This document shows, in pieces, positions 530 to 6,259 of a DNA stretch of 6,259 nucleotides. The notes under the pieces are model-generated. The model searched no databases. It saw nothing but the letters and a program-made list of their open reading frames with translations, and was not told the DNA's origin. The stretch is from sequence record NC_007827.1; one strand, 5' to 3'. A program made the position numbers and the translations under genes. The number at the start of each line of letters is the position of its first letter. Positions within the stretch are counted from its first letter, which is position 1. The stretch is from Escherichia phage NC29.

Positions 530-702
530 AGTATTTTAGCCTTGTGGATGAACACTATGCTTATTGCCCTGATTCGCGCATTTTGCACATCACTCGTAGT
601 CGTGTTTCTGACCCTCGGTATGAGCGTCGTTTTCTTACTGATGAGGAGCATCTTGCACTTCTGGATTGGTTGAAAAATCGCCCAACTTATATTAATTCTT
701 GA
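526..702 (+). CDS. hypothetical protein, H-A spacer ORF3 (58 aa, MKYFSLVDEHYAYCPDSRILHITRSRVSDPRYERRFLTDEEHLALLDWLKNRPTYINS)
   Basis: ATG 526-528 overlaps the ORF2 stop TGA 527-529 (ATGA coupling); AGGA (515-518) at 7-nt spacing; T-biased third positions; stop TGA 700-702. Found by hand translation. Confidence 0.5.
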   Translation: MKYFSLVDEHYAYCPDSRILHITRSRVSDPRYERRFLTDEEHLALLDWLKNRPTYINS

Positions 703-728
703 CAAGTCTTTGATACACCGTCTATATT
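699..728 (+). promoter_or_regulatory. sigma70-like promoter upstream of gene A (pA-like): TTGACA - 18 nt - TATATT
   Basis: -35 TTGACA at 699-704 (6/6 consensus), 18-nt spacer, -10 TATATT at 723-728 (5/6); position equivalent to phiX174 pA just upstream of gene A. Confidence 0.45.
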
Positions 729-759
729 GCCCTCATAGTGATTCTACGAGGGCTTTTTT
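729..759 (+). terminator. intrinsic terminator-like hairpin plus T6 tract (T_H-like) immediately upstream of the gene A start
   Basis: GCCCTC (729-734) pairs with GAGGGC (748-753) and TAG (736-738) with CTA (744-746), 5-nt loop, followed by TTTTTT 754-759; GC-rich stem plus U-tract is the classic rho-independent architecture. Confidence 0.55.
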
Positions 760-761
760 GC

Positions 762-2246
762 ATGGCTACTGAAAACTTCTTCGATGTTGTTAAGACCGTC
801 TGGTCCCACGCTACGGCTAAGCACGCCCATCTTCGTATGGCTGTTCAGGTTGATAACCGCAGTCGCCTTCTCTCTGACCTCGTTTATCAGTTGGAAAAAC
901 GTCTTTCTGAAGAAACTCATCTGGATGATGAGACTTATTCCCTTTATGAATCTCAAACTGGTTTCTTGGAAGACCATATGTCTCTGGTTCGGAAGTGTGC
1001 TGCCCAACTTGATAATAGTAACACTATAGACCACCGTACCTCTTTGGATGCCGAATGTGTTTTCCTGTTTGAAATGATTTGCCCGGGTGTTCGCTACGGT
1101 AAAACGTTGAATTCTCTTTGGACTAAGTATGTTGCTCAATGGCCTGAGAAGTTAATTCGTCAAGAGTTAGACATGGTTAAGCCTTTATCCTTTAAGGATG
1201 AGGTTGCTAGGTACATGGAGAAGATGCAGGAAAAAACACGCAAAAATCGCATGACTCAAAAAGTAATTAATGAGATGCGTATTGCTCACCAAAAGGGCTG
1301 GTTTTTCGTATTTGATACTTTGACACTTGCTGATGACCGTTTGCAGGCTTTTAATGAAAACCCCAATGCTCTTCGTGATTATTTCAGGACTGTTGGTCGA
1401 GCTGTTCTGCGCGCTGAAGGTCGTTCGGTTAAGGATTCCTACAACGACTGCTATCGCTATCTTTGTGTGCCGGAGTTTGGAGGTCAGCACGGTCGTCTTC
1501 ATTGGCACGTTGTGCATATGGTGCGGACTCTTCCTTTGGGAAGTCACGACCCTAATTTCGGTCGCAAGGTACGTAATTATCGCCAGATTAACTCGTTCCG
1601 TGGCATGTGGCCTTATGGCTTCACGCAACCGATAGCTGTACGCTATCAACATGATGCTTATTCTCGCAAAGGTTGGTTGTGGCCTGTTGACAAATCAGGT
1701 AAAGCAATGCAGAGTAAGCCCTATCAGGCGGTCGCATGGTATGTGACCAAGTATGTAGCCAAGCAATCTGACCAGCGTCAGAAAGCTATTACTGAGAGAC
1801 AAAAAAAATGCAAGAATCCACTTATGGCAATCTGTCTGAAAAAGGAATTCAGAGTTCGCAGCAGCCGGAAGCTCGGAATGGAGTTACCGTCGATGGCGCA
1901 TCTCAGCAACAAAGTGCTTCTGGAGCTGAGTCGAATCAGCTTCGATTCCAGCCCTCTGTATCAGATAGTGAAAGAGAACGCCAAAAAGCAATTGACCTTG
2001 AACATCGGCGCGCTGCCTTTGCACGTCATTTTGGATGTGCGCCCGGAAGTGAGAAGTATGTTGAAAAATATCCGTCGTTTGATGAAAAAGACACCCGAGT
2101 TCAATTGGCAGAGTTCTATCGCTTCAATGACGGTCACCTTAAAAAATGGGGATATTTCTGATGAAGCACGTCAATACATTATTGATGCAGGAATTACGCC
2201 TTTTGATTTGCGAGCTAAAGCGACTCAAACTTTCGGCGGTAAGTGA
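762..2246 (+). CDS. A: replication initiation protein A (rolling-circle HUH endonuclease)
   Basis: Alignable along most of its length to phiX174 gpA as I remember it: HUH motif in HGRLHWHVVHMVRTLP, twin catalytic tyrosines in YVTKYVAKQSD, and GWFFVFDTLTLADDRL. The track ORF begins at GTG 738; I prefer the first ATG (762, MATENFF...). Stop TGA 2244-2246. Confidence 0.9.
   Translation: MATENFFDVVKTVWSHATAKHAHLRMAVQVDNRSRLLSDLVYQLEKRLSEETHLDDETYSLYESQTGFLEDHMSLVRKCAAQLDNSNTIDHRTSLDAECVFLFEMICPGVRYGKTLNSLWTKYVAQWPEKLIRQELDMVKPLSFKDEVARYMEKMQEKTRKNRMTQKVINEMRIAHQKGWFFVFDTLTLADDRLQAFNENPNALRDYFRTVGRAVLRAEGRSVKDSYNDCYRYLCVPEFGGQHGRLHWHVVHMVRTLPLGSHDPNFGRKVRNYRQINSFRGMWPYGFTQPIAVRYQHDAYSRKGWLWPVDKSGKAMQSKPYQAVAWYVTKYVAKQSDQRQKAITERQKKCKNPLMAICLKKEFRVRSSRKLGMELPSMAHLSNKVLLELSRISFDSSPLYQIVKENAKKQLTLNIGALPLHVILDVRPEVRSMLKNIRRLMKKTPEFNWQSSIASMTVTLKNGDISDEARQYIIDAGITPFDLRAKATQTFGGK
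1015..1044 (+). other. viral (+) strand replication origin, 30-nt gpA recognition/nick site inside gene A
   Basis: CAACTTGATAATAGTAACACTATAGACCAC matches the phiX174 30-nt origin CAACTTGATATTAATAACACTATAGACCAC (from memory) at 28/30 positions, both differences in the AT-rich spacer; the expected nick is between G1021 and A1022. Confidence 0.75.
1224..2246 (+). CDS. A*: A* (in-frame internal restart of A), start codon tentative
   Basis: phiX174 A* begins at an internal Met (MKSRRGF...) about 25 residues before the conserved GWF motif; the equivalent position here is flanked by in-frame ATGs at 1215, 1224 and 1251. None has a convincing SD, so the exact start is not determinable from sequence. 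Confidence 0.3.
   Translation: MQEKTRKNRMTQKVINEMRIAHQKGWFFVFDTLTLADDRLQAFNENPNALRDYFRTVGRAVLRAEGRSVKDSYNDCYRYLCVPEFGGQHGRLHWHVVHMVRTLPLGSHDPNFGRKVRNYRQINSFRGMWPYGFTQPIAVRYQHDAYSRKGWLWPVDKSGKAMQSKPYQAVAWYVTKYVAKQSDQRQKAITERQKKCKNPLMAICLKKEFRVRSSRKLGMELPSMAHLSNKVLLELSRISFDSSPLYQIVKENAKKQLTLNIGALPLHVILDVRPEVRSMLKNIRRLMKKTPEFNWQSSIASMTVTLKNGDISDEARQYIIDAGITPFDLRAKATQTFGGK
1808..2161 (+). CDS. B: internal scaffolding protein B (encoded within A in another frame)
   Basis: 117 aa; C-terminus ...RVQLAEFYRFNDGHLKKWGYF parallels phiX174 gpB ...RIQPAEFYRFHDAEVNTFGYF; acidic, Q/S-rich N-terminal half; entirely nested in gene A. Confidence 0.85.
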   Translation: MQESTYGNLSEKGIQSSQQPEARNGVTVDGASQQQSASGAESNQLRFQPSVSDSERERQKAIDLEHRRAAFARHFGCAPGSEKYVEKYPSFDEKDTRVQLAEFYRFNDGHLKKWGYF

Positions 2247-2479: not shown

Positions 2480-2712
2480 CTCATAGATAAATGAAGCAGT
2501 GGTGCAAAGTAGTTTATCTAAGTGGTAAGTTCAGTGAAGGGTGACCCGCTCTAAGTAGCTGAAGGGTGTTGGATGTAAGGACTCCGCGATTGACTGGTTT
2601 ATACTGGAACACTATCGGGTCAGTGAAGTGGCTGCTGAGAAATAGCCCTCTAGCTTTACGAAGACTAGGCTACATCGCGAACACCATTGTTACTTTTTTA
2701 TGGAGGATTTAT

Positions 2713-3171
2713 ATGTCTAATCTTGTTGCTACCGATGTTAATTTTGCTACCTCTGTTGCTGCTCTGAAGATGCTTCAGGCTTCTGCTGTTCTTGATATCA
2801 CTGAGGAAGATTTCGATTTTCTGACTGGTGATAAGATTTGGATTGCTACTGACCGCAATCGTGCTCGTCGTTGTGTTGAGGCGTGTGTTTATGGAACGCT
2901 GGACTTTGTTGGATACCCTCGCTTTCCTGCTCCTGTTGAGTTTATTGCTGCCGTCATTGCTTATTATGTTCATCCCGTCAACATTCAGACGGCCTGTCTC
3001 ATCATGGAAGGCGCTGAGTTTACGGAGAACATTGTTAATGGCGTCGAACGTCCGGTTAAAGCCGCTGAACTCTTTGCGTACACCTTGCGTGTTAAGGCTG
3101 GATTCAAAGAAACGGTTCTGAGTGCTGAAGATAATGCTCGTCAGAAACTTCGTGCAAGTGGAGTTATGTAA
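2713..3171 (+). CDS. D: external scaffolding protein D
   Basis: 152 aa; ATG 2713 with GGAGG (2702-2706) at 6-nt spacing; near-identical over long stretches to phiX174 gpD (LQASAVLD.TE.DFDFLT...WIATDR.RARRCVEACVYGTLDFVGYPRFPAPVEFIAAVIAYYVHPVNIQTACLIMEGAEFTEN). Confidence 0.95.
   Translation: MSNLVATDVNFATSVAALKMLQASAVLDITEEDFDFLTGDKIWIATDRNRARRCVEACVYGTLDFVGYPRFPAPVEFIAAVIAYYVHPVNIQTACLIMEGAEFTENIVNGVERPVKAAELFAYTLRVKAGFKETVLSAEDNARQKLRASGVM
2891..3121 (+). CDS. E: lysis protein E (embedded in D, +1 frame)
   Basis: 76 aa; MERWTLLDTLAFLLLLSLLLPSLLIMFIPSTFRRPVSSWKAL... is nearly identical to the phiX174 E N-terminal transmembrane domain, including the conserved Pro21. Confidence 0.85.
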   Translation: MERWTLLDTLAFLLLLSLLLPSLLIMFIPSTFRRPVSSWKALSLRRTLLMASNVRLKPLNSLRTPCVLRLDSKKRF

Positions 3172-3172
3172 T

Positions 3173-3247
3173 ATGAAAAAGGCTCGTCGTTCTCCTTCTC
3201 GTAAGAAAGGTGCCCGTCTCTGGTATGTAGGCGGTTCTCAATTTTAA
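3173..3247 (+). CDS. J: small basic DNA-binding/packaging protein J (24 aa)
   Basis: Hand translation MKKARRSPSRKKGARLWYVGGSQF; the C-terminus KGARLWYVGG.QF matches phiX174 gpJ, while the short 24-aa length is typical of alpha3/G4-type J; starts 1 nt after the D stop. Confidence 0.85.
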   Translation: MKKARRSPSRKKGARLWYVGGSQF

Positions 3248-3252
3248 TTAAT

Positions 3253-3278
3253 GGGCTTCGGCCCCTATAAGGATTTTT
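3253..3278 (+). terminator. cUUCGg tetraloop hairpin in the J-F spacer (T_J-like terminator or mRNA 3' stabiliser), overlapping the F ribosome-binding site
   Basis: GGGC (3253-3256) / TTCG loop / GCCC (3261-3264), then CTATAAGGATTTTT; SD TAAGGA 3268-3273 sits 7 nt before the F ATG. phiX174 has a terminator in the J-F spacer. Confidence 0.35.
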
Positions 3279-3280
3279 AA

Positions 3281-4564
3281 ATGTCAAATGTACAAACTTC
3301 CGCTGAGCGTATCCCTCATGACCTGTCTCATCTGGTTTTTGAAGCAGGCAAAATTGGTCGTTTAAAAGTTGTTTCTTGGACTCCTGTTGTTGCAGGTGAT
3401 TCTTTTGAGCTTGATATGATTGGCGCTATTCGCCTCTCCCCGCTTCGTCGTGGTCTTGCTGTTGACTCTCGCGTTGACTTGTTCACGTTTTATGTTCCTC
3501 ATCGTCATGTATATGGTGAGCAGTGGATTGAGTTTATTAAGGAAGGTGTCAATGCTCCACCGTTGGCTCCTGTTCAGTGCTCTCGTGGTTGGGATAGTGC
3601 GCAGTATCTCGCTACTATTCCGTCTTCTAACTTAAAGGTTCCTAAGTTCCTTCATCAAGGTTACTTGAACATTTACAATAACTATTTTAAAGCTCCGTGG
3701 ATGGATGACTTGACTTATGCCAACCCATCTAATATGGAAGGTGAAGATGTTCGTTTTGGTGTTCGTGCATGTAATTTAAAAACTATCTGGACTGCTCCGC
3801 TTCCTCCAGATACTGAGACTTCTCATTCTATGGAGACCGAGACCAACTCCATTGACATTATGGGTTTACAGGCCGCTTATGCTCAATTACATACCGAGCA
3901 GGAGCGTGATTACTTCATGACTCGTTATCGTGATATTGTTAACGAATTTGGTGGTAGTACTTCTTATGATGCGGATAATCGTCCTTTGCTTGTTATGCAT
4001 TCTGAGTTCTGGGCCTCAGGCTATGACGTCGACGGCACCGACCAAAGCTCTCTCGGTCAGTTCTCCGGTCGTGTTCAGCAGACGTTTAAGCATTCAGTAC
4101 CGCGATTCTTCTGTCCTGAGCATGGCACTATGTTCACACTCGCATTGGTCCGCTTCCCTCCGACTCATGAAATGGAGATGCATTACTTAGTTGGTAAAGA
4201 AAATTTGACTTATACTGATCTGGCTTGTGATCCTGCTTTGATGGCTAACTTGCCTCCGCGTGAGGTTAATATGTCTCAGTTCTTCCATTCTGGAAGTGCT
4301 AGTGCTAAGTTTAAGATCGCTGAGGGTCAGTGGTATCGTATGCAGCCTGACCGCGTTGCATTGCCGTATAACTATCTTGATGGTTTTCCGTTCTATAGTG
4401 CGATTCCGTCTCATGATATTAAGCAGCGTGTTCTGGTTAATACTGATAACTATGATGAGGTTTTCCAGTCTATGCAGCTTGCACACTGGAATATGCAGAC
4501 TAAGTTTAACTGCACGATTTATCGTAATATGCCGACCACTCGTGATTCTATTATGACCTCTTGA
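3281..4564 (+). CDS. F: major capsid protein F
   Basis: 427 aa; long blocks match phiX174 gpF (MSN.QT.AER.PHDLSHL, LRLSPLRRGLA.DS.VD.FTFYVPHRHVYGEQWI, QGYLNIYNNYFKAPWM, SIDIMGLQAAYA.LHT.QERDYFM.RYRD, SYDADNRPLLVM, GYDVDGTDQ.SLGQFSGRVQQT.KHSVPRFF.PEHGTMFTLALVRFPPT, TTRDSIMTS). Confidence 0.95.
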   Translation: MSNVQTSAERIPHDLSHLVFEAGKIGRLKVVSWTPVVAGDSFELDMIGAIRLSPLRRGLAVDSRVDLFTFYVPHRHVYGEQWIEFIKEGVNAPPLAPVQCSRGWDSAQYLATIPSSNLKVPKFLHQGYLNIYNNYFKAPWMDDLTYANPSNMEGEDVRFGVRACNLKTIWTAPLPPDTETSHSMETETNSIDIMGLQAAYAQLHTEQERDYFMTRYRDIVNEFGGSTSYDADNRPLLVMHSEFWASGYDVDGTDQSSLGQFSGRVQQTFKHSVPRFFCPEHGTMFTLALVRFPPTHEMEMHYLVGKENLTYTDLACDPALMANLPPREVNMSQFFHSGSASAKFKIAEGQWYRMQPDRVALPYNYLDGFPFYSAIPSHDIKQRVLVNTDNYDEVFQSMQLAHWNMQTKFNCTIYRNMPTTRDSIMTS

Positions 4565-4570
4565 TTATGT

Positions 4571-4587
4571 GGGGCTTCGGCCCCCTT
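4571..4587 (+). terminator. cUUCGg tetraloop hairpin in the F-G spacer (T_F-like terminator or mRNA 3' stabiliser)
   Basis: GGGGC (4571-4575) / TTCG loop / GCCCC (4580-4584), then CTTT; followed by SD TAAGGA 4588-4593, 7 nt before the G ATG; near-duplicate of the J-F module. Confidence 0.35.
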
Positions 4588-4600
4588 TAAGGATTTGATT

Positions 4601-5146
4601 ATGTTTCAAGTTTATGTAGCTAAGCATGTTGCTCCTTTTACTTCTATGAACCGTACCTTTTCTATCTCTCCTGCTGCTGCCCCGCAGGTTGTCAATTCTG
4701 GTGAGATTGTTGCAGGTCGTTCTACTTTTCGTATTGCTTCCTCTATTGGTTCTGCTTCTAATGGTAATGGTTTCGCATTCGTTCAGATGATGGACCCTAA
4801 CTCTCCTGATTCTCAACAGGTTTTCTCTGTTGCTGCGTCGCTATCTTTTAGTGTTGACTCGAATTATGTTCCTTGCGTTGTTCGTTTTGAAAGTAGTTTC
4901 TCTCAGCCTGGTCAATTTGCTATTGCTGAGGCTGATTTTATTCCGGTTGAGTCGTCAGCTCTTTCTGCTCGTGCGCTTAGCGTTCGTGATTGTGTTACTG
5001 TTGATGTTAAGCCTCGCGCTGAAGGTAATAATGTTTTTGTTGGACTGTTCTTGTCTTCTGCCGCCGCTAATGCTGGTAATGTTACTGGTGTCATTTCTAT
5101 GGCTCAGGTTGACCATGAAGTTACAGCTTTGCAGCCTCTTAAATAA
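4601..5146 (+). CDS. G: major spike protein G
   Basis: 181 aa from ATG 4601 (track ORF starts at TTG 4595); MFQ... N-terminus and CVVRFESS, DCVT.DV.PR..GNNV.VG, and C-terminal LQPLK match phiX174 gpG. Confidence 0.9.
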   Translation: MFQVYVAKHVAPFTSMNRTFSISPAAAPQVVNSGEIVAGRSTFRIASSIGSASNGNGFAFVQMMDPNSPDSQQVFSVAASLSFSVDSNYVPCVVRFESSFSQPGQFAIAEADFIPVESSALSARALSVRDCVTVDVKPRAEGNNVFVGLFLSSAAANAGNVTGVISMAQVDHEVTALQPLK

Positions 5147-5160
5147 AAGGCCGCCGCACT

Positions 5161-5256
5161 CTCGGTTATATGCCTGCCCAGTGTAGGGCGGACCGAGCCG
5201 TACGGAGATACCCGTGAAACTAGGAACGTGGAAGGCGTTAGCCGCCTTCCCTCCTG
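5161..5256 (+). other. candidate complementary (-) strand origin: three consecutive stem-loops in the GC-rich G-H spacer
   Basis: Hairpins: CTCGGT 5161-5166 / ACCGAG 5192-5197 enclosing 5174-5179 / 5186-5191; ACGG 5202-5205 / CCGT 5212-5215; GGAAGGCG 5230-5237 / CGCCTTCC 5243-5250 (perfect 8-bp stem, 5-nt loop); CTG at 5254-5256 just 3' of the last hairpin. G4-type phages prime at a multi-hairpin origin with DnaG alone. Confidence 0.4.
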
Positions 5257-5281
5257 CTAAGCCCAAAGGAGACTTTCAGCT

Positions 5282-6259
5282 ATGTTAGGTGCCGTTGTTG
5301 GTGGTATTGCTTCAGCCTTAGCCGGTGGAGCAGCTTCTAAGTTGTTTGGTGGTAAGCCTGCCTCTCAGGCCGCTACCGAATCCGCTGGCCTTTCTAATGG
5401 TCAAGGTGTTATTGGTATGGACCAAGATGCCGGTATTCAGTCCGCTATTCAGGGTTCAAATGTCCCAAATGGTCAGATTCCCGCTCCTACTACTACAGGT
5501 GGCGTTATGTCTGATGCTGGTAATATGATTAAGAATGCTGGTAAAGATTTGCTTGATGGTGTTATGACTGCCGGTAGTGACCGTGTTAAGCAGGCTTTGA
5601 TTGACAGATTGGGTGGTAATAATGCAAAGAGACAAGGAAAAGCAACCCGTGATTACTTGGCTGCAGCCTTCCCTGAACTCAATGCATGGGAACGTGCTGG
5701 AGCTGTTGCTTCCGGCTCCGGCTTGGAATCTTCCAGTCAGGACCAGCAGAAAGAGTTGATGCGAATGCAGCTGGACAATCAGAAAGATATTGCGAAGATG
5801 CAGATGCAGAATAATTTGCAGATTGCTGGTATTCAGTCCGCTACTTCTCGTCAAAATACGAAGGATTCTGTTTATGCTCAGAATGAGATGCTTCAGTACA
5901 ATCAACGTGAGTCACAGGCACGTGTTGAGTCTATCCTTGCCAACACTAACCTTACGGATAAACAGGCTACCCATGAAATCATGAGGATGGCCCTTACTCG
6001 TGCTCAGGAGACTGGTCAGCATTTGACTAACTCTCAGATTATTGCTTTGGAGAAAAAGGTTTATGCAGAAATTGGAAAAATTCATCAAGATACTCAAAAC
6101 TCTCGCTATGGTAGCTCTCAAGTTACTGCTGCGGCGAAAGATGTTACGAATATGATTACCGATGCCGCCTCAGGTGCTGCTGATTGGGCCTCTCAGCAAT
6201 GGAATTCGTTCTTCAAGGATGGTAAGTCTAATGGCATTCCTCTTAACACCAGAAAATAA
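5282..6259 (+). CDS. H: minor spike / DNA pilot protein H
   Basis: 325 aa; N-terminus M.GA..GGIASALAGGA.SKLFGG and internal TRDYLAAAFPELNAWERAGA, IAGIQSATSRQNTKD.VYAQNEML.Y match phiX174 gpH; AGGAG-like AAGGAG 5266-5271 upstream; stop TAA is the last three bases of the window. Confidence 0.9.
   Translation: MLGAVVGGIASALAGGAASKLFGGKPASQAATESAGLSNGQGVIGMDQDAGIQSAIQGSNVPNGQIPAPTTTGGVMSDAGNMIKNAGKDLLDGVMTAGSDRVKQALIDRLGGNNAKRQGKATRDYLAAAFPELNAWERAGAVASGSGLESSSQDQQKELMRMQLDNQKDIAKMQMQNNLQIAGIQSATSRQNTKDSVYAQNEMLQYNQRESQARVESILANTNLTDKQATHEIMRMALTRAQETGQHLTNSQIIALEKKVYAEIGKIHQDTQNSRYGSSQVTAAAKDVTNMITDAASGAADWASQQWNSFFKDGKSNGIPLNTRK

What the first reader, a model, noticed from the sequence alone, without database searches (positions are those of the whole stretch)
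4565..4600. F-G spacer carries a near-duplicate of the J-F hairpin/SD module and is too short to hold a phiX-type primosome assembly site
GGGGC-TTCG-GCCCC (4571-4584) followed by CTT, TAAGGA (4588-4593) and a 7-nt spacer to the G ATG; the 13-nt core GGGCTTCGGCCCC and the TAAGGATTT motif are shared with 3253-3276. The same cassette therefore brackets the capsid gene F on both sides, suggesting duplication or strong convergent constraint. The whole spacer is only 36 nt, whereas phiX174 keeps its PriA-dependent assembly site in a longer F-G spacer, so this phage probably primes complementary-strand synthesis elsewhere (see the G-H spacer).
Basis: partly seen in the sequence, partly recalled or inferred. 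Interest (0 to 1): 0.45.

Follow-up and report, generated by a model that had tools for sequence, protein, structure and literature searches.

The report
Leaky terminator hairpins flanking capsid gene
The short gap between the capsid gene F and the spike gene G of this alpha3-like microvirus holds a small, very stable RNA hairpin plus a ribosome-binding site, almost the same as the module in front of F; this is the ordinary layout of its phage group, whose complementary-strand origin sits in the G-H gap instead.

Summary
GGGCTTCGGCCCC occurs exactly twice (3253-3265, 4572-4584), and the hairpin+TAAGGATTT modules match 24/25, far above chance. The window is a complete alpha3-like microvirus (Alphatrevirus, 92.9% identical to NC3).

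The J-F hairpin is present in every Bullavirinae genome examined. In phiX174 it is the same 14 nt and corresponds to TJ, a leaky rho-independent terminator and mRNA stabiliser. The F-G copy is present in all 17 alpha3-like genomes examined. It is absent from phiX174-, G4- and ID18-like phages, whose 83-137 nt F-G spacers carry the complementary-strand origin.

Compensatory changes support the stem. The closing C-G pair never varies and the loop is UUCG or UACG, which points to an RNA-level c(UNCG)g hairpin.

The 135-nt G-H spacer is 76% identical to the G4 primase-dependent origin. It includes hairpin I with the St-1/alpha3-type GCGTTAGC and the CTG start site.

Whether the F-G module is a duplicate of J-F or convergent stays open. 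The finding is real and ordinary.

A more unusual item lies elsewhere. A 233-nt C-D spacer unique to this phage holds a ~210-nt structured element shared with unrelated dsDNA coliphages and absent from Rfam.

The parts
4565..4600 (+). F-G intergenic spacer (36 nt): hairpin plus gene G ribosome-binding site; no origin-type element
   Evidence: It is identical in NC3, ID21 and ID62. It has no similarity to the phiX174 or ID18 PriA-site spacers.
4571..4584 (+). c(UUCG)g hairpin GGGGC-UUCG-GCCCC (5 bp, loop 4576-4579); proposed TF-equivalent leaky terminator and 3' mRNA stabiliser
   Evidence: RNA MFE is -10.4 kcal/mol. The 14 nt are identical to the phiX174 J-F (TJ) hairpin. Covariation is shown.
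4588..4593 (+). Shine-Dalgarno TAAGGA of gene G, 7 nt before the ATG at 4601
   Evidence: It is conserved in all alpha3-like F-G spacers.
3248..3280 (+). J-F intergenic spacer (33 nt): TJ-type hairpin plus gene F ribosome-binding site
3253..3264 (+). c(UUCG)g hairpin GGGC-UUCG-GCCC (4 bp here, 5 bp in its closest, WA13-like relatives); ortholog of phiX174 TJ
   Evidence: RNA MFE is -7.1 kcal/mol. A hairpin is present at this position in every Bullavirinae genome examined.
3268..3273 (+). Shine-Dalgarno TAAGGA of gene F, 7 nt before the ATG at 3281
3281..4564 (+). Gene F (major capsid protein), bracketed by the two modules; G4/ID18-like along its whole length although the flanking J gene is alpha3-like
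5147..5281 (+). G-H spacer (135 nt): G4-type, primase-dependent complementary-strand origin acting on the viral (+) ssDNA
   Evidence: 102 of 135 aligned positions are identical to the G4 F-G origin. blastn gives E 2e-22.
5230..5250 (+). Origin hairpin I: GGAAGGCG-TTAGC-CGCCTTCC, containing the St-1/alpha3-type GCGTTAGC mini-hairpin
   Evidence: 8 bp are conserved, with one compensatory A-T to C-G change against G4. The sequence motif is described in PMC13037366.
5254..5256 (+). CTG aligned with the G4 primer start site (T5255 corresponds to G4 T3997)
   Evidence: The mapping uses the G4 record annotation and is computed. The rule that priming starts at the T of a CTG 3' of the hairpins comes from PMC6783573.

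Best explanation
The F-G spacer is a minimal expression-control module. It is not a replication element.

On the mRNA, which has the sense of the + strand, GGGGCUUCGGCCCC folds into a 5-bp G/C stem. The stem is capped by a c(UUCG)g tetraloop, 6 nt after the F stop codon. The tail that follows is weak and interrupted in U (CUUUAAGGAUUU).

I infer that the hairpin works like phiX174 TJ, whose hairpin has the same 14 nt:
- It stops a minority of RNA polymerases.
- It protects the 3' end of the transcripts that end there.
- mRNA dosage therefore steps down from F to G.

The SD TAAGGA lies 7 nt before the ATG and drives translation of G.

The J-F module is the ortholog of TJ, and the F-G module is the alpha3-group counterpart of TF. 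In phiX174 the TF hairpin doubles as the PriA site. In the alpha3 group the two jobs are separated: F-G keeps only the terminator and RBS. Complementary-strand priming is done by a G4-type DnaG/SSB origin in the G-H spacer.

Shown here: the structure, its conservation and covariation, its distribution among phages, and the homology of the origin. Inferred: termination, mRNA stabilisation and priming activity.
For: - The hairpin is identical to the only hairpin in the phiX174 J-F spacer.
- phiX174 TJ lies in the J-F intergenic region and is a leaky rho-independent terminator. Together with TF and TG it blocks 20-40% of transcription (Logel & Jaschke preprint), with 68% read-through of TJ at 37 C. 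Disrupting the TJ structure speeds mRNA decay (PMC3335065, citing Hayashi 1983).
- Across 19 distinct hairpin versions, 90% of cells are paired against 75% in shuffles. Four of 6 pairs show double changes (G-C to C-G to A-U). The closing C-G pair is invariant. The loop is UUCG in 17, UACG in 1 and CGCG in 1.
- The module is present in 17 of 17 alpha3-like genomes, including three metagenomic ones.
- The phiX174 F-G spacer carries TF overlapping ori(-) and the PriA hairpin (Wei et al. preprint). Nothing similar exists in the window.
- The G-H spacer matches the G4 origin, with hairpin I, GCGTTAGC and the CTG start.
Against: - There are no transcript data for this phage or for any alpha3-like phage.
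- The U-tract is poor, and the consensus terminator scan did not call either hairpin.
- The folding z-scores of these short sequences are not significant, because shuffles keep the G and C runs.
- In phiX174 only about 15% of single substitutions in terminators reduce fitness, so any effect is probably modest.
- The same hairpin also forms in the viral ssDNA (-5.8 kcal/mol), so a DNA-level role is not excluded.
Confidence: 0.75

Rival explanations
1. The hairpin is chiefly a translational device. It acts as a stable insulator that keeps the adjacent SD single-stranded, or it couples G initiation to F termination. F and G would then be made in matched amounts (60 copies each per virion). Any termination would be incidental.
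For: - Hairpin, SD and the 7-nt spacing are the same before F and before G.
- In the 96-nt fold the bases around the F stop codon pair weakly with part of the SD region.
- The U-tract is weak.
Against: - The identical phiX174 hairpin has documented termination and mRNA-stability effects.
- The extended pairing is A/U-rich, was not predicted for J-F, and was not tested for conservation.
- This role can coexist with termination.
Confidence: 0.15
2. The hairpins act on the packaged or incoming single-stranded DNA. Examples would be excluding SSB, guiding packaging or J-protein binding, or serving as a minor priming or pausing site.
For: - The hairpin forms in DNA on both strands at about -5.8 kcal/mol; only 1-5 of 200 shuffles fold as well.
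- Microvirus origins are ssDNA hairpins.
Against: - The invariant C-G closing pair with UUCG/UACG loops is the signature of the RNA UNCG tetraloop (own knowledge, Tuerk et al. 1988).
- A 14-nt hairpin is far smaller than any known pas or oric.
- A complete G4-type origin is present elsewhere.
Confidence: 0.05
3. On origin: the F-G module is a true duplicate (paralog) of the J-F module. It would have been installed when the origin moved from F-G to G-H in the alpha3 lineage, and kept similar by occasional gene conversion. The alternative is independent convergence on the most stable minimal hairpin next to a consensus SD.
For: - The spacers align from stop codon to start codon (69-88% identity; phiK 35/39).
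- The GGGGC or GGGCC stem variant is shared by both copies in 16 of 17 genomes, although a switch needs two transversions.
- The F-G module is confined to one lineage, whereas J-F is universal.
Against: - The flanks are 4-7 nt of AT-rich sequence.
- Each position keeps its own flank signature across genomes.
- The concordance rests on one compensatory pair and on few independent events (tree).
- MG945254 is discordant.
- TAAGGA is also the SD before G in ID18 and before F in G4-like phages.
Confidence: 0.5
4. The F-G spacer still serves as a PriA-dependent primosome assembly site.
For: None, beyond its position matching that of the phiX174 site.
Against: - It is 36 nt long with a single 14-nt hairpin.
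- It has no similarity to the phiX174 or ID18 F-G spacers.
- According to the phiX174 work, the PriA hairpin alone spans at least nt 2308-2338.
Confidence: 0.02

Closest known systems
phiX174 TJ (J-F intercistronic terminator and mRNA-stabilising hairpin)
   Same: - The 14-nt hairpin GGGGCTTCGGCCCC is identical.
- It sits just after a structural-gene stop codon and just before the SD of the next gene.
- The U-tail is weak.
   Different: Here a second copy follows gene F, and the J-F copy of this phage has lost one base pair. Function has been measured only in phiX174 and G4.
phiX174 TF / ori(-) (F-G spacer with the PriA n' site)
   Same: It has the same genomic slot (after F, before G) and the same presumed terminator role.
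   Different: The phiX174 spacer is 110 nt, and its terminator hairpin doubles as the PriA site. The window's spacer is 36 nt, unrelated in sequence, and has no origin function.
G4oric and the St-1/phiK/alpha3 primase-dependent complementary-strand origins
   Same: The window's G-H spacer is 76% identical to G4oric. It has the 8-bp hairpin I, GCGTTAGC as in St-1/alpha3, and the CTG start site.
   Different: The origin lies between G and H, as in alpha3/St-1/phiK. In G4 it lies between F and G.
c(UUCG)g tetraloop hairpins of phage intercistronic regions (Tuerk et al. 1988, T4; own knowledge)
   Same: It has a C-G closing pair, a UUCG loop, a short G/C stem and an intercistronic position.
   Different: The phage family is different. 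No thermodynamic or nuclease-protection measurements exist for this case.

Membership tests
Bullavirinae TJ-type leaky intrinsic terminator / mRNA stabiliser | G+C-rich stem-loop on the sense strand in the spacer directly 3' of a structural gene | tested here: met
   Hairpins lie at 4571-4584 and 3253-3264.
Bullavirinae TJ-type leaky intrinsic terminator / mRNA stabiliser | Sequence relationship to the characterised phiX174 TJ hairpin | tested here: met
   14 of 14 nt are identical to the phiX174 J-F hairpin.
Bullavirinae TJ-type leaky intrinsic terminator / mRNA stabiliser | Stem maintained by compensatory change across relatives | tested here: met
   90% of cells are paired, 4 of 6 pairs show double changes, and 0 of 500 shuffles reach the covariation score.
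Bullavirinae TJ-type leaky intrinsic terminator / mRNA stabiliser | U-rich tail after the stem | tested here: inconclusive
   The tail CUUUAAGGAUUU fails the criterion of at least 5 T in 8. It is about as weak as the phiX174 TJ tail UUACUUGAGG.
Bullavirinae TJ-type leaky intrinsic terminator / mRNA stabiliser | Transcript 3' ends, partial termination, and longer half-life of transcripts ending there | not testable with these tools
   Only phiX174 data are available.
c(UNCG)g RNA tetraloop hairpin | UNCG loop closed by a C-G pair | tested here: met
   The closing C-G pair is present in 19 of 19 versions. The loop is UUCG in 17 and UACG in 1; G4 has CGCG.
phiX174-type PriA (n') primosome assembly site | Long imperfect hairpin with similarity to the phiX174/ID18 F-G spacer | tested here: not met
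   The spacer is 36 nt, and no blastn hit exceeds chance 10-11-mers.
phiX174-type PriA (n') primosome assembly site | PriA binding and ATPase activation | not testable with these tools
   This needs a biochemical assay.
G4-type primase-dependent complementary-strand origin (G-H spacer) | Homology to G4oric along its whole length | tested here: met
   102 of 135 positions are identical; blastn E 2e-22.
G4-type primase-dependent complementary-strand origin (G-H spacer) | Hairpin I with a GCGNNAGC mini-hairpin, followed 3' by the CTG start site | tested here: met
   Hairpin I is at 5230-5250 with GCGTTAGC; the CTG at 5254-5256 aligns to the G4 primer start at 3997.
G4-type primase-dependent complementary-strand origin (G-H spacer) | Priming by DnaG + SSB alone | not testable with these tools
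   It was shown for G4, and for St-1/phiK/alpha3 by Sims et al. 1979 as cited in PMC13037366.

The most novel reading that the evidence does not exclude
The two c(UUCG)g cassettes are paralogs kept alike by gene conversion, and they mark the boundaries of an exchangeable capsid-gene cassette. In this clade, F is G4/ID18-like from its first codons to its last, while J upstream is alpha3-like. G downstream resembles neither group closely, and the F-G and G-H spacer layout there is alpha3-type. The conserved hairpin/SD modules would then be the junctions that let a foreign F be swapped in with its expression signals intact. The F-G copy would have arisen from TJ when the complementary-strand origin moved to G-H.
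Probability: 0.2. Interest if true: 0.4.

Novelty: new member of a known kind. Interest (0 to 1): 0.2.

Why it matters
It matters mainly for correct annotation. The F-G and J-F spacers of alpha3-like phages can be labelled as TF/TJ-type hairpin plus RBS modules, and the G-H spacer as the complementary-strand origin. No new priming mechanism needs to be proposed.

The comparison also shows in one view how the three Bullavirinae groups distribute terminator and origin functions over the F-G and G-H slots. It further shows that gene F is exchanged as a unit bounded by these modules.

That is useful for engineering microvirus genomes, but it does not open a new question.

Tried and rejected
- A protein-based scan of metagenome contigs with protein G found nothing.
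- An IMG/VR scan with protein F returned mostly known reference-sized genomes.
- A DNA-pattern scan gave three extra alpha3-like contigs (L037, L042, L049) plus unrelated hits.
- Rfam had no family at either hairpin or in the G-H spacer.
- The consensus terminator scan did not call the hairpins.
- Shuffle z-scores of 39-96-nt folds were uninformative because the G and C runs survive shuffling.
- I rejected a PriA site in the F-G spacer.
- I rejected chance similarity of the two modules.
- Concerted evolution of the two copies was considered but cannot be shown. It rests on one compensatory pair and few independent events.
- The hairpins as the actual crossover points of the F exchange were considered but cannot be shown. 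Conserved coding ends (J ...ARLWYVGG, F ...TTRDSIMTS) offer equal or better homology.
- Hayashi 1983, Rokyta 2006 and Rokyta 2009 are not held in the paper library. Kodaira 1992 is a subscription-journal paper that I did not look up. What I say of these four rests on citing papers or on memory.
- For the C-D element, the IMG/VR 19-mer scan was empty and the genome contigs 17-mer hits were chance matches.

Full report
**What the window is.** The 6259-nt window is a complete circular-type microvirus genome of the alpha3 group (Bullavirinae, Alphatrevirus). The best match is coliphage NC3 at 92.9% over 96% of the length. WA13, ID32, NC35, ID21 and ID62 match at 90-92.5%; alpha3, phiK and St-1 match at about 85% over about 82%. 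By comparison with the annotated relatives, the gene map is:
- A: 762-2246
- C: 2273-2479
- D: 2713-3171
- J: 3173-3247
- F: 3281-4564
- G: 4601-5146
- H: 5282-6259

**Checking the observation.** Every coordinate in the finding is exact.
- GGGCTTCGGCCCC occurs at 3253-3265 and 4572-4584 and nowhere else.
- Even with two mismatches allowed, 0.06 matches are expected, and no shuffle gave two.
- TAAGGATTT on its own is not significant.
- The modules align 24/25 with one gap, local score 38. The maximum was 23 in 5000 shuffled pairs and 22 anywhere else in the genome.
- Both modules start 5-6 nt after a stop codon and place TAAGGA 7 nt before the next ATG.
- The J-F stem is only 4 bp here (-7.1 kcal/mol), against 5 bp (-10.4 kcal/mol) in F-G. 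This phage lacks one G that its closest relatives, the WA13-like phages, have.

**Distribution among relatives.** I extracted the J-F, F-G and G-H spacers from 13 alpha3-like GenBank genomes, three alpha3-like metagenomic contigs found with a DNA pattern (L037, L042, L049), and phiX174, G4, ID18, ID52 and three more distant contigs.
- A hairpin sits in the J-F spacer of every genome. In phiX174, ID18, L026 and L032 it is the same GGGGCTTCGGCCCC. ID52 has GGGGGC-TACG-GCCCCC. G4 has a different 7-bp hairpin.
- The F-G hairpin/SD module is present in all 17 alpha3-like genomes, where the spacer is 33-37 nt.
- It is absent from all the others, whose F-G spacers are 83-137 nt and carry origin-type sequences.
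- So the refuting condition 'relatives lacking the shared module' is not met within the group. The F-G copy is a derived feature of the alpha3 lineage.

**Evidence for structure.** I compared 19 distinct versions of the hairpin.
- 90% of cells are paired, against 75% in column shuffles and at most 68% when the partner is slid.
- Four of six pairs show changes on both sides (G-C to C-G to A-U).
- The pair closing the loop is C-G in 19 of 19.
- The loop is UUCG in 17, UACG in one and CGCG in G4.
- A C-G closing pair with a UNCG loop defines the exceptionally stable RNA tetraloop (own knowledge: Tuerk et al. 1988). This favours a function in the mRNA, which has the sense of the + strand.
- The same hairpin can also form in ssDNA at about -5.8 kcal/mol.

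**What it most likely does.** This part is inferred from phiX174.
- phiX174 has four leaky rho-independent terminators in the J-F, F-G, G-H and H-A spacers. TJ, TF and TG each remove 20-40% of the transcriptional current (Logel & Jaschke preprint).
- 68% of transcripts read through TJ at 37 C, transcripts ending at TJ are the most stable, and disruption of the TJ structure accelerates decay (PMC3335065, citing Hayashi et al. 1983).
- The only hairpin in the phiX174 J-F spacer is the 14-mer found here in F-G.
- I therefore read the J-F module as the TJ ortholog. I read the F-G module as the alpha3-group TF: a weak terminator and 3' exonuclease block, followed by the RBS of the next gene.
- Caveats: no transcript data exist for this group, the U-tail is poor, and the consensus scan does not call either site.

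**The priming question.**
- In phiX174 the TF hairpin overlaps ori(-) and is the PriA binding site (Wei et al. preprint; PMC3606162).
- Neither the phiX174 nor the ID18 F-G spacer has any counterpart in the window.
- The G4 F-G spacer matches window 5146-5270 (E 2e-22). The 135-nt G-H spacer aligns with G4oric along its whole length, with 102 of 135 positions identical.
- The 8-bp hairpin I is conserved, with one compensatory A-T to C-G change. It contains GCGTTAGC, the variant reported for St-1 and alpha3 (PMC13037366, citing Sims, Capon & Dressler 1979).
- The CTG at 5254-5256 aligns with the annotated G4 primer start. This fits the rule that primase starts at the T of a CTG 3' of the hairpins (PMC6783573).

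**Duplication or convergence.**
- Within each genome the two spacers align from stop to start codon at 69-88% identity; phiK reaches 35/39.
- The stem variant (GGGGC/GCCCC or GGGCC/GGCCC) is the same in both copies in 16 of 17 genomes. MG945254 is the exception.
- This suggests paralogy with some concerted change.
- Against that, the flanks are short and AT-rich, each position keeps its own flank signature across genomes, and the concordance reflects few independent events (tree).
- I leave it at about even odds.

**A related observation on gene F.**
- Protein F of this clade is 80-81% identical to G4/ID18 F but 65-66% identical to alpha3/phiK F. It is G4/ID18-like from the first 40 residues to the last.
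- J immediately upstream is alpha3-type.
- G is no more than 40% identical to alpha3, phiK, G4, ID18 or phiX174 G.
- F has therefore been exchanged as a precise cassette whose borders coincide with the two modules. An F transfer between these groups was, as I recall, reported by Rokyta et al. 2006; that paper is not held.
- Conserved coding ends could have provided the crossovers equally well, so a causal role for the hairpins is not shown.

**Verdict.** The feature is real, non-random and conserved, and it is ordinary for the alpha3 group. Novelty is low.

**Seen in passing.** The C-D spacer is 233 nt, against 26-73 nt of unrelated sequence in relatives.
- Positions 2493-2649 match unannotated intergenic DNA of Kuravirus podophages at 75-79% identity.
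- The alignment supports a multi-helix structure: 95.5% of cells are paired against at most 40% when slid, and 13 pairs show double changes.
- A covariance model built from it finds a full-length copy in the Vequintavirinae phage UPEC06 (E about 5e-17). It finds none in phiEco32, 172-1, EP335, or the four other alpha3-like loci searched (NC3, alpha3, L042, L049).
- Rfam 15 has no match.
- The element lies just downstream of the PD-like promoter at 2448-2476, so it would be the leader of the D-J-F-G-H transcripts.

Noticed in passing
window 2480-2712 (element 2488-2697, + strand): The C-D spacer is 233 nt and unique to this phage; relatives have 26-73 nt of unrelated sequence. It holds a ~210-nt element with strong covariation support for about 10 helices. 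The element is shared at 75-79% identity with gene-free regions of Kuravirus podophages (MN03, Bas89, FS2B, XT32, SDYTW1). A covariance model also finds it in the Vequintavirinae myophage UPEC06. There is no Rfam 15 match and no tRNA. It lies just after the PD-like promoter, so it would be the 5' leader of the late mRNAs. It is a candidate undescribed structured RNA moved between dsDNA and ssDNA coliphages; its function is unknown.
   Followed up: partly
window 3281-4564 (gene F) versus 3173-3247 (J) and 4601-5146 (G): F is G4/ID18-like over its entire length (80-81% aa identity, against 65-66% to alpha3/phiK). J is alpha3-type. G is no more than 40% identical to G of alpha3, phiK, G4, ID18 or phiX174. 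This is a precise capsid-gene cassette exchange whose borders coincide with the two hairpin modules.
   Followed up: partly
window 3253-3264: The J-F hairpin of this phage has lost one G, giving a 4-bp stem at -7.1 kcal/mol. Most alpha3-like relatives, including all of its closest WA13-like ones, have at least 5 bp; Lilleven also has 4 bp. If the hairpin is TJ, this predicts more read-through or less stable D-J transcripts.
   Followed up: no
window 699-760: A promoter-like site (TTGACA-18-TATATT, 11/12) is followed directly by the hairpin CCCTC...GAGGG and a T6 run just before the gene A start at 762. This is the same overlapping pA-TH arrangement described for phiX174.
   Followed up: no
G-H spacers: window 5150-5200 and L002, L004, L006, L007, L011 (alignment A1, columns 13-19 and 50-57): There are correlated changes between GGCCGCC and GGGCGGACC: C to T paired with G to A in alpha3, ID32, WA13 and WA45, and G to A paired with C to T in NC28. 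They suggest a long-range pairing in the origin that competes with the hairpin predicted by RNAalifold.
   Followed up: no
L001 (NC3) 2477-2549: The NC3 C-D spacer contains about 2.5 tandem copies of a 15-nt unit (GAGCTCTCTACATTT). So the C-D junction is a hot spot for insertions in this clade.
   Followed up: no
L055 (UPEC06) 1521-1796, minus strand: Two small annotated 'hypothetical protein' ORFs on the minus strand overlap the structured element found by the covariance model. They are probably mis-annotations.
   Followed up: no
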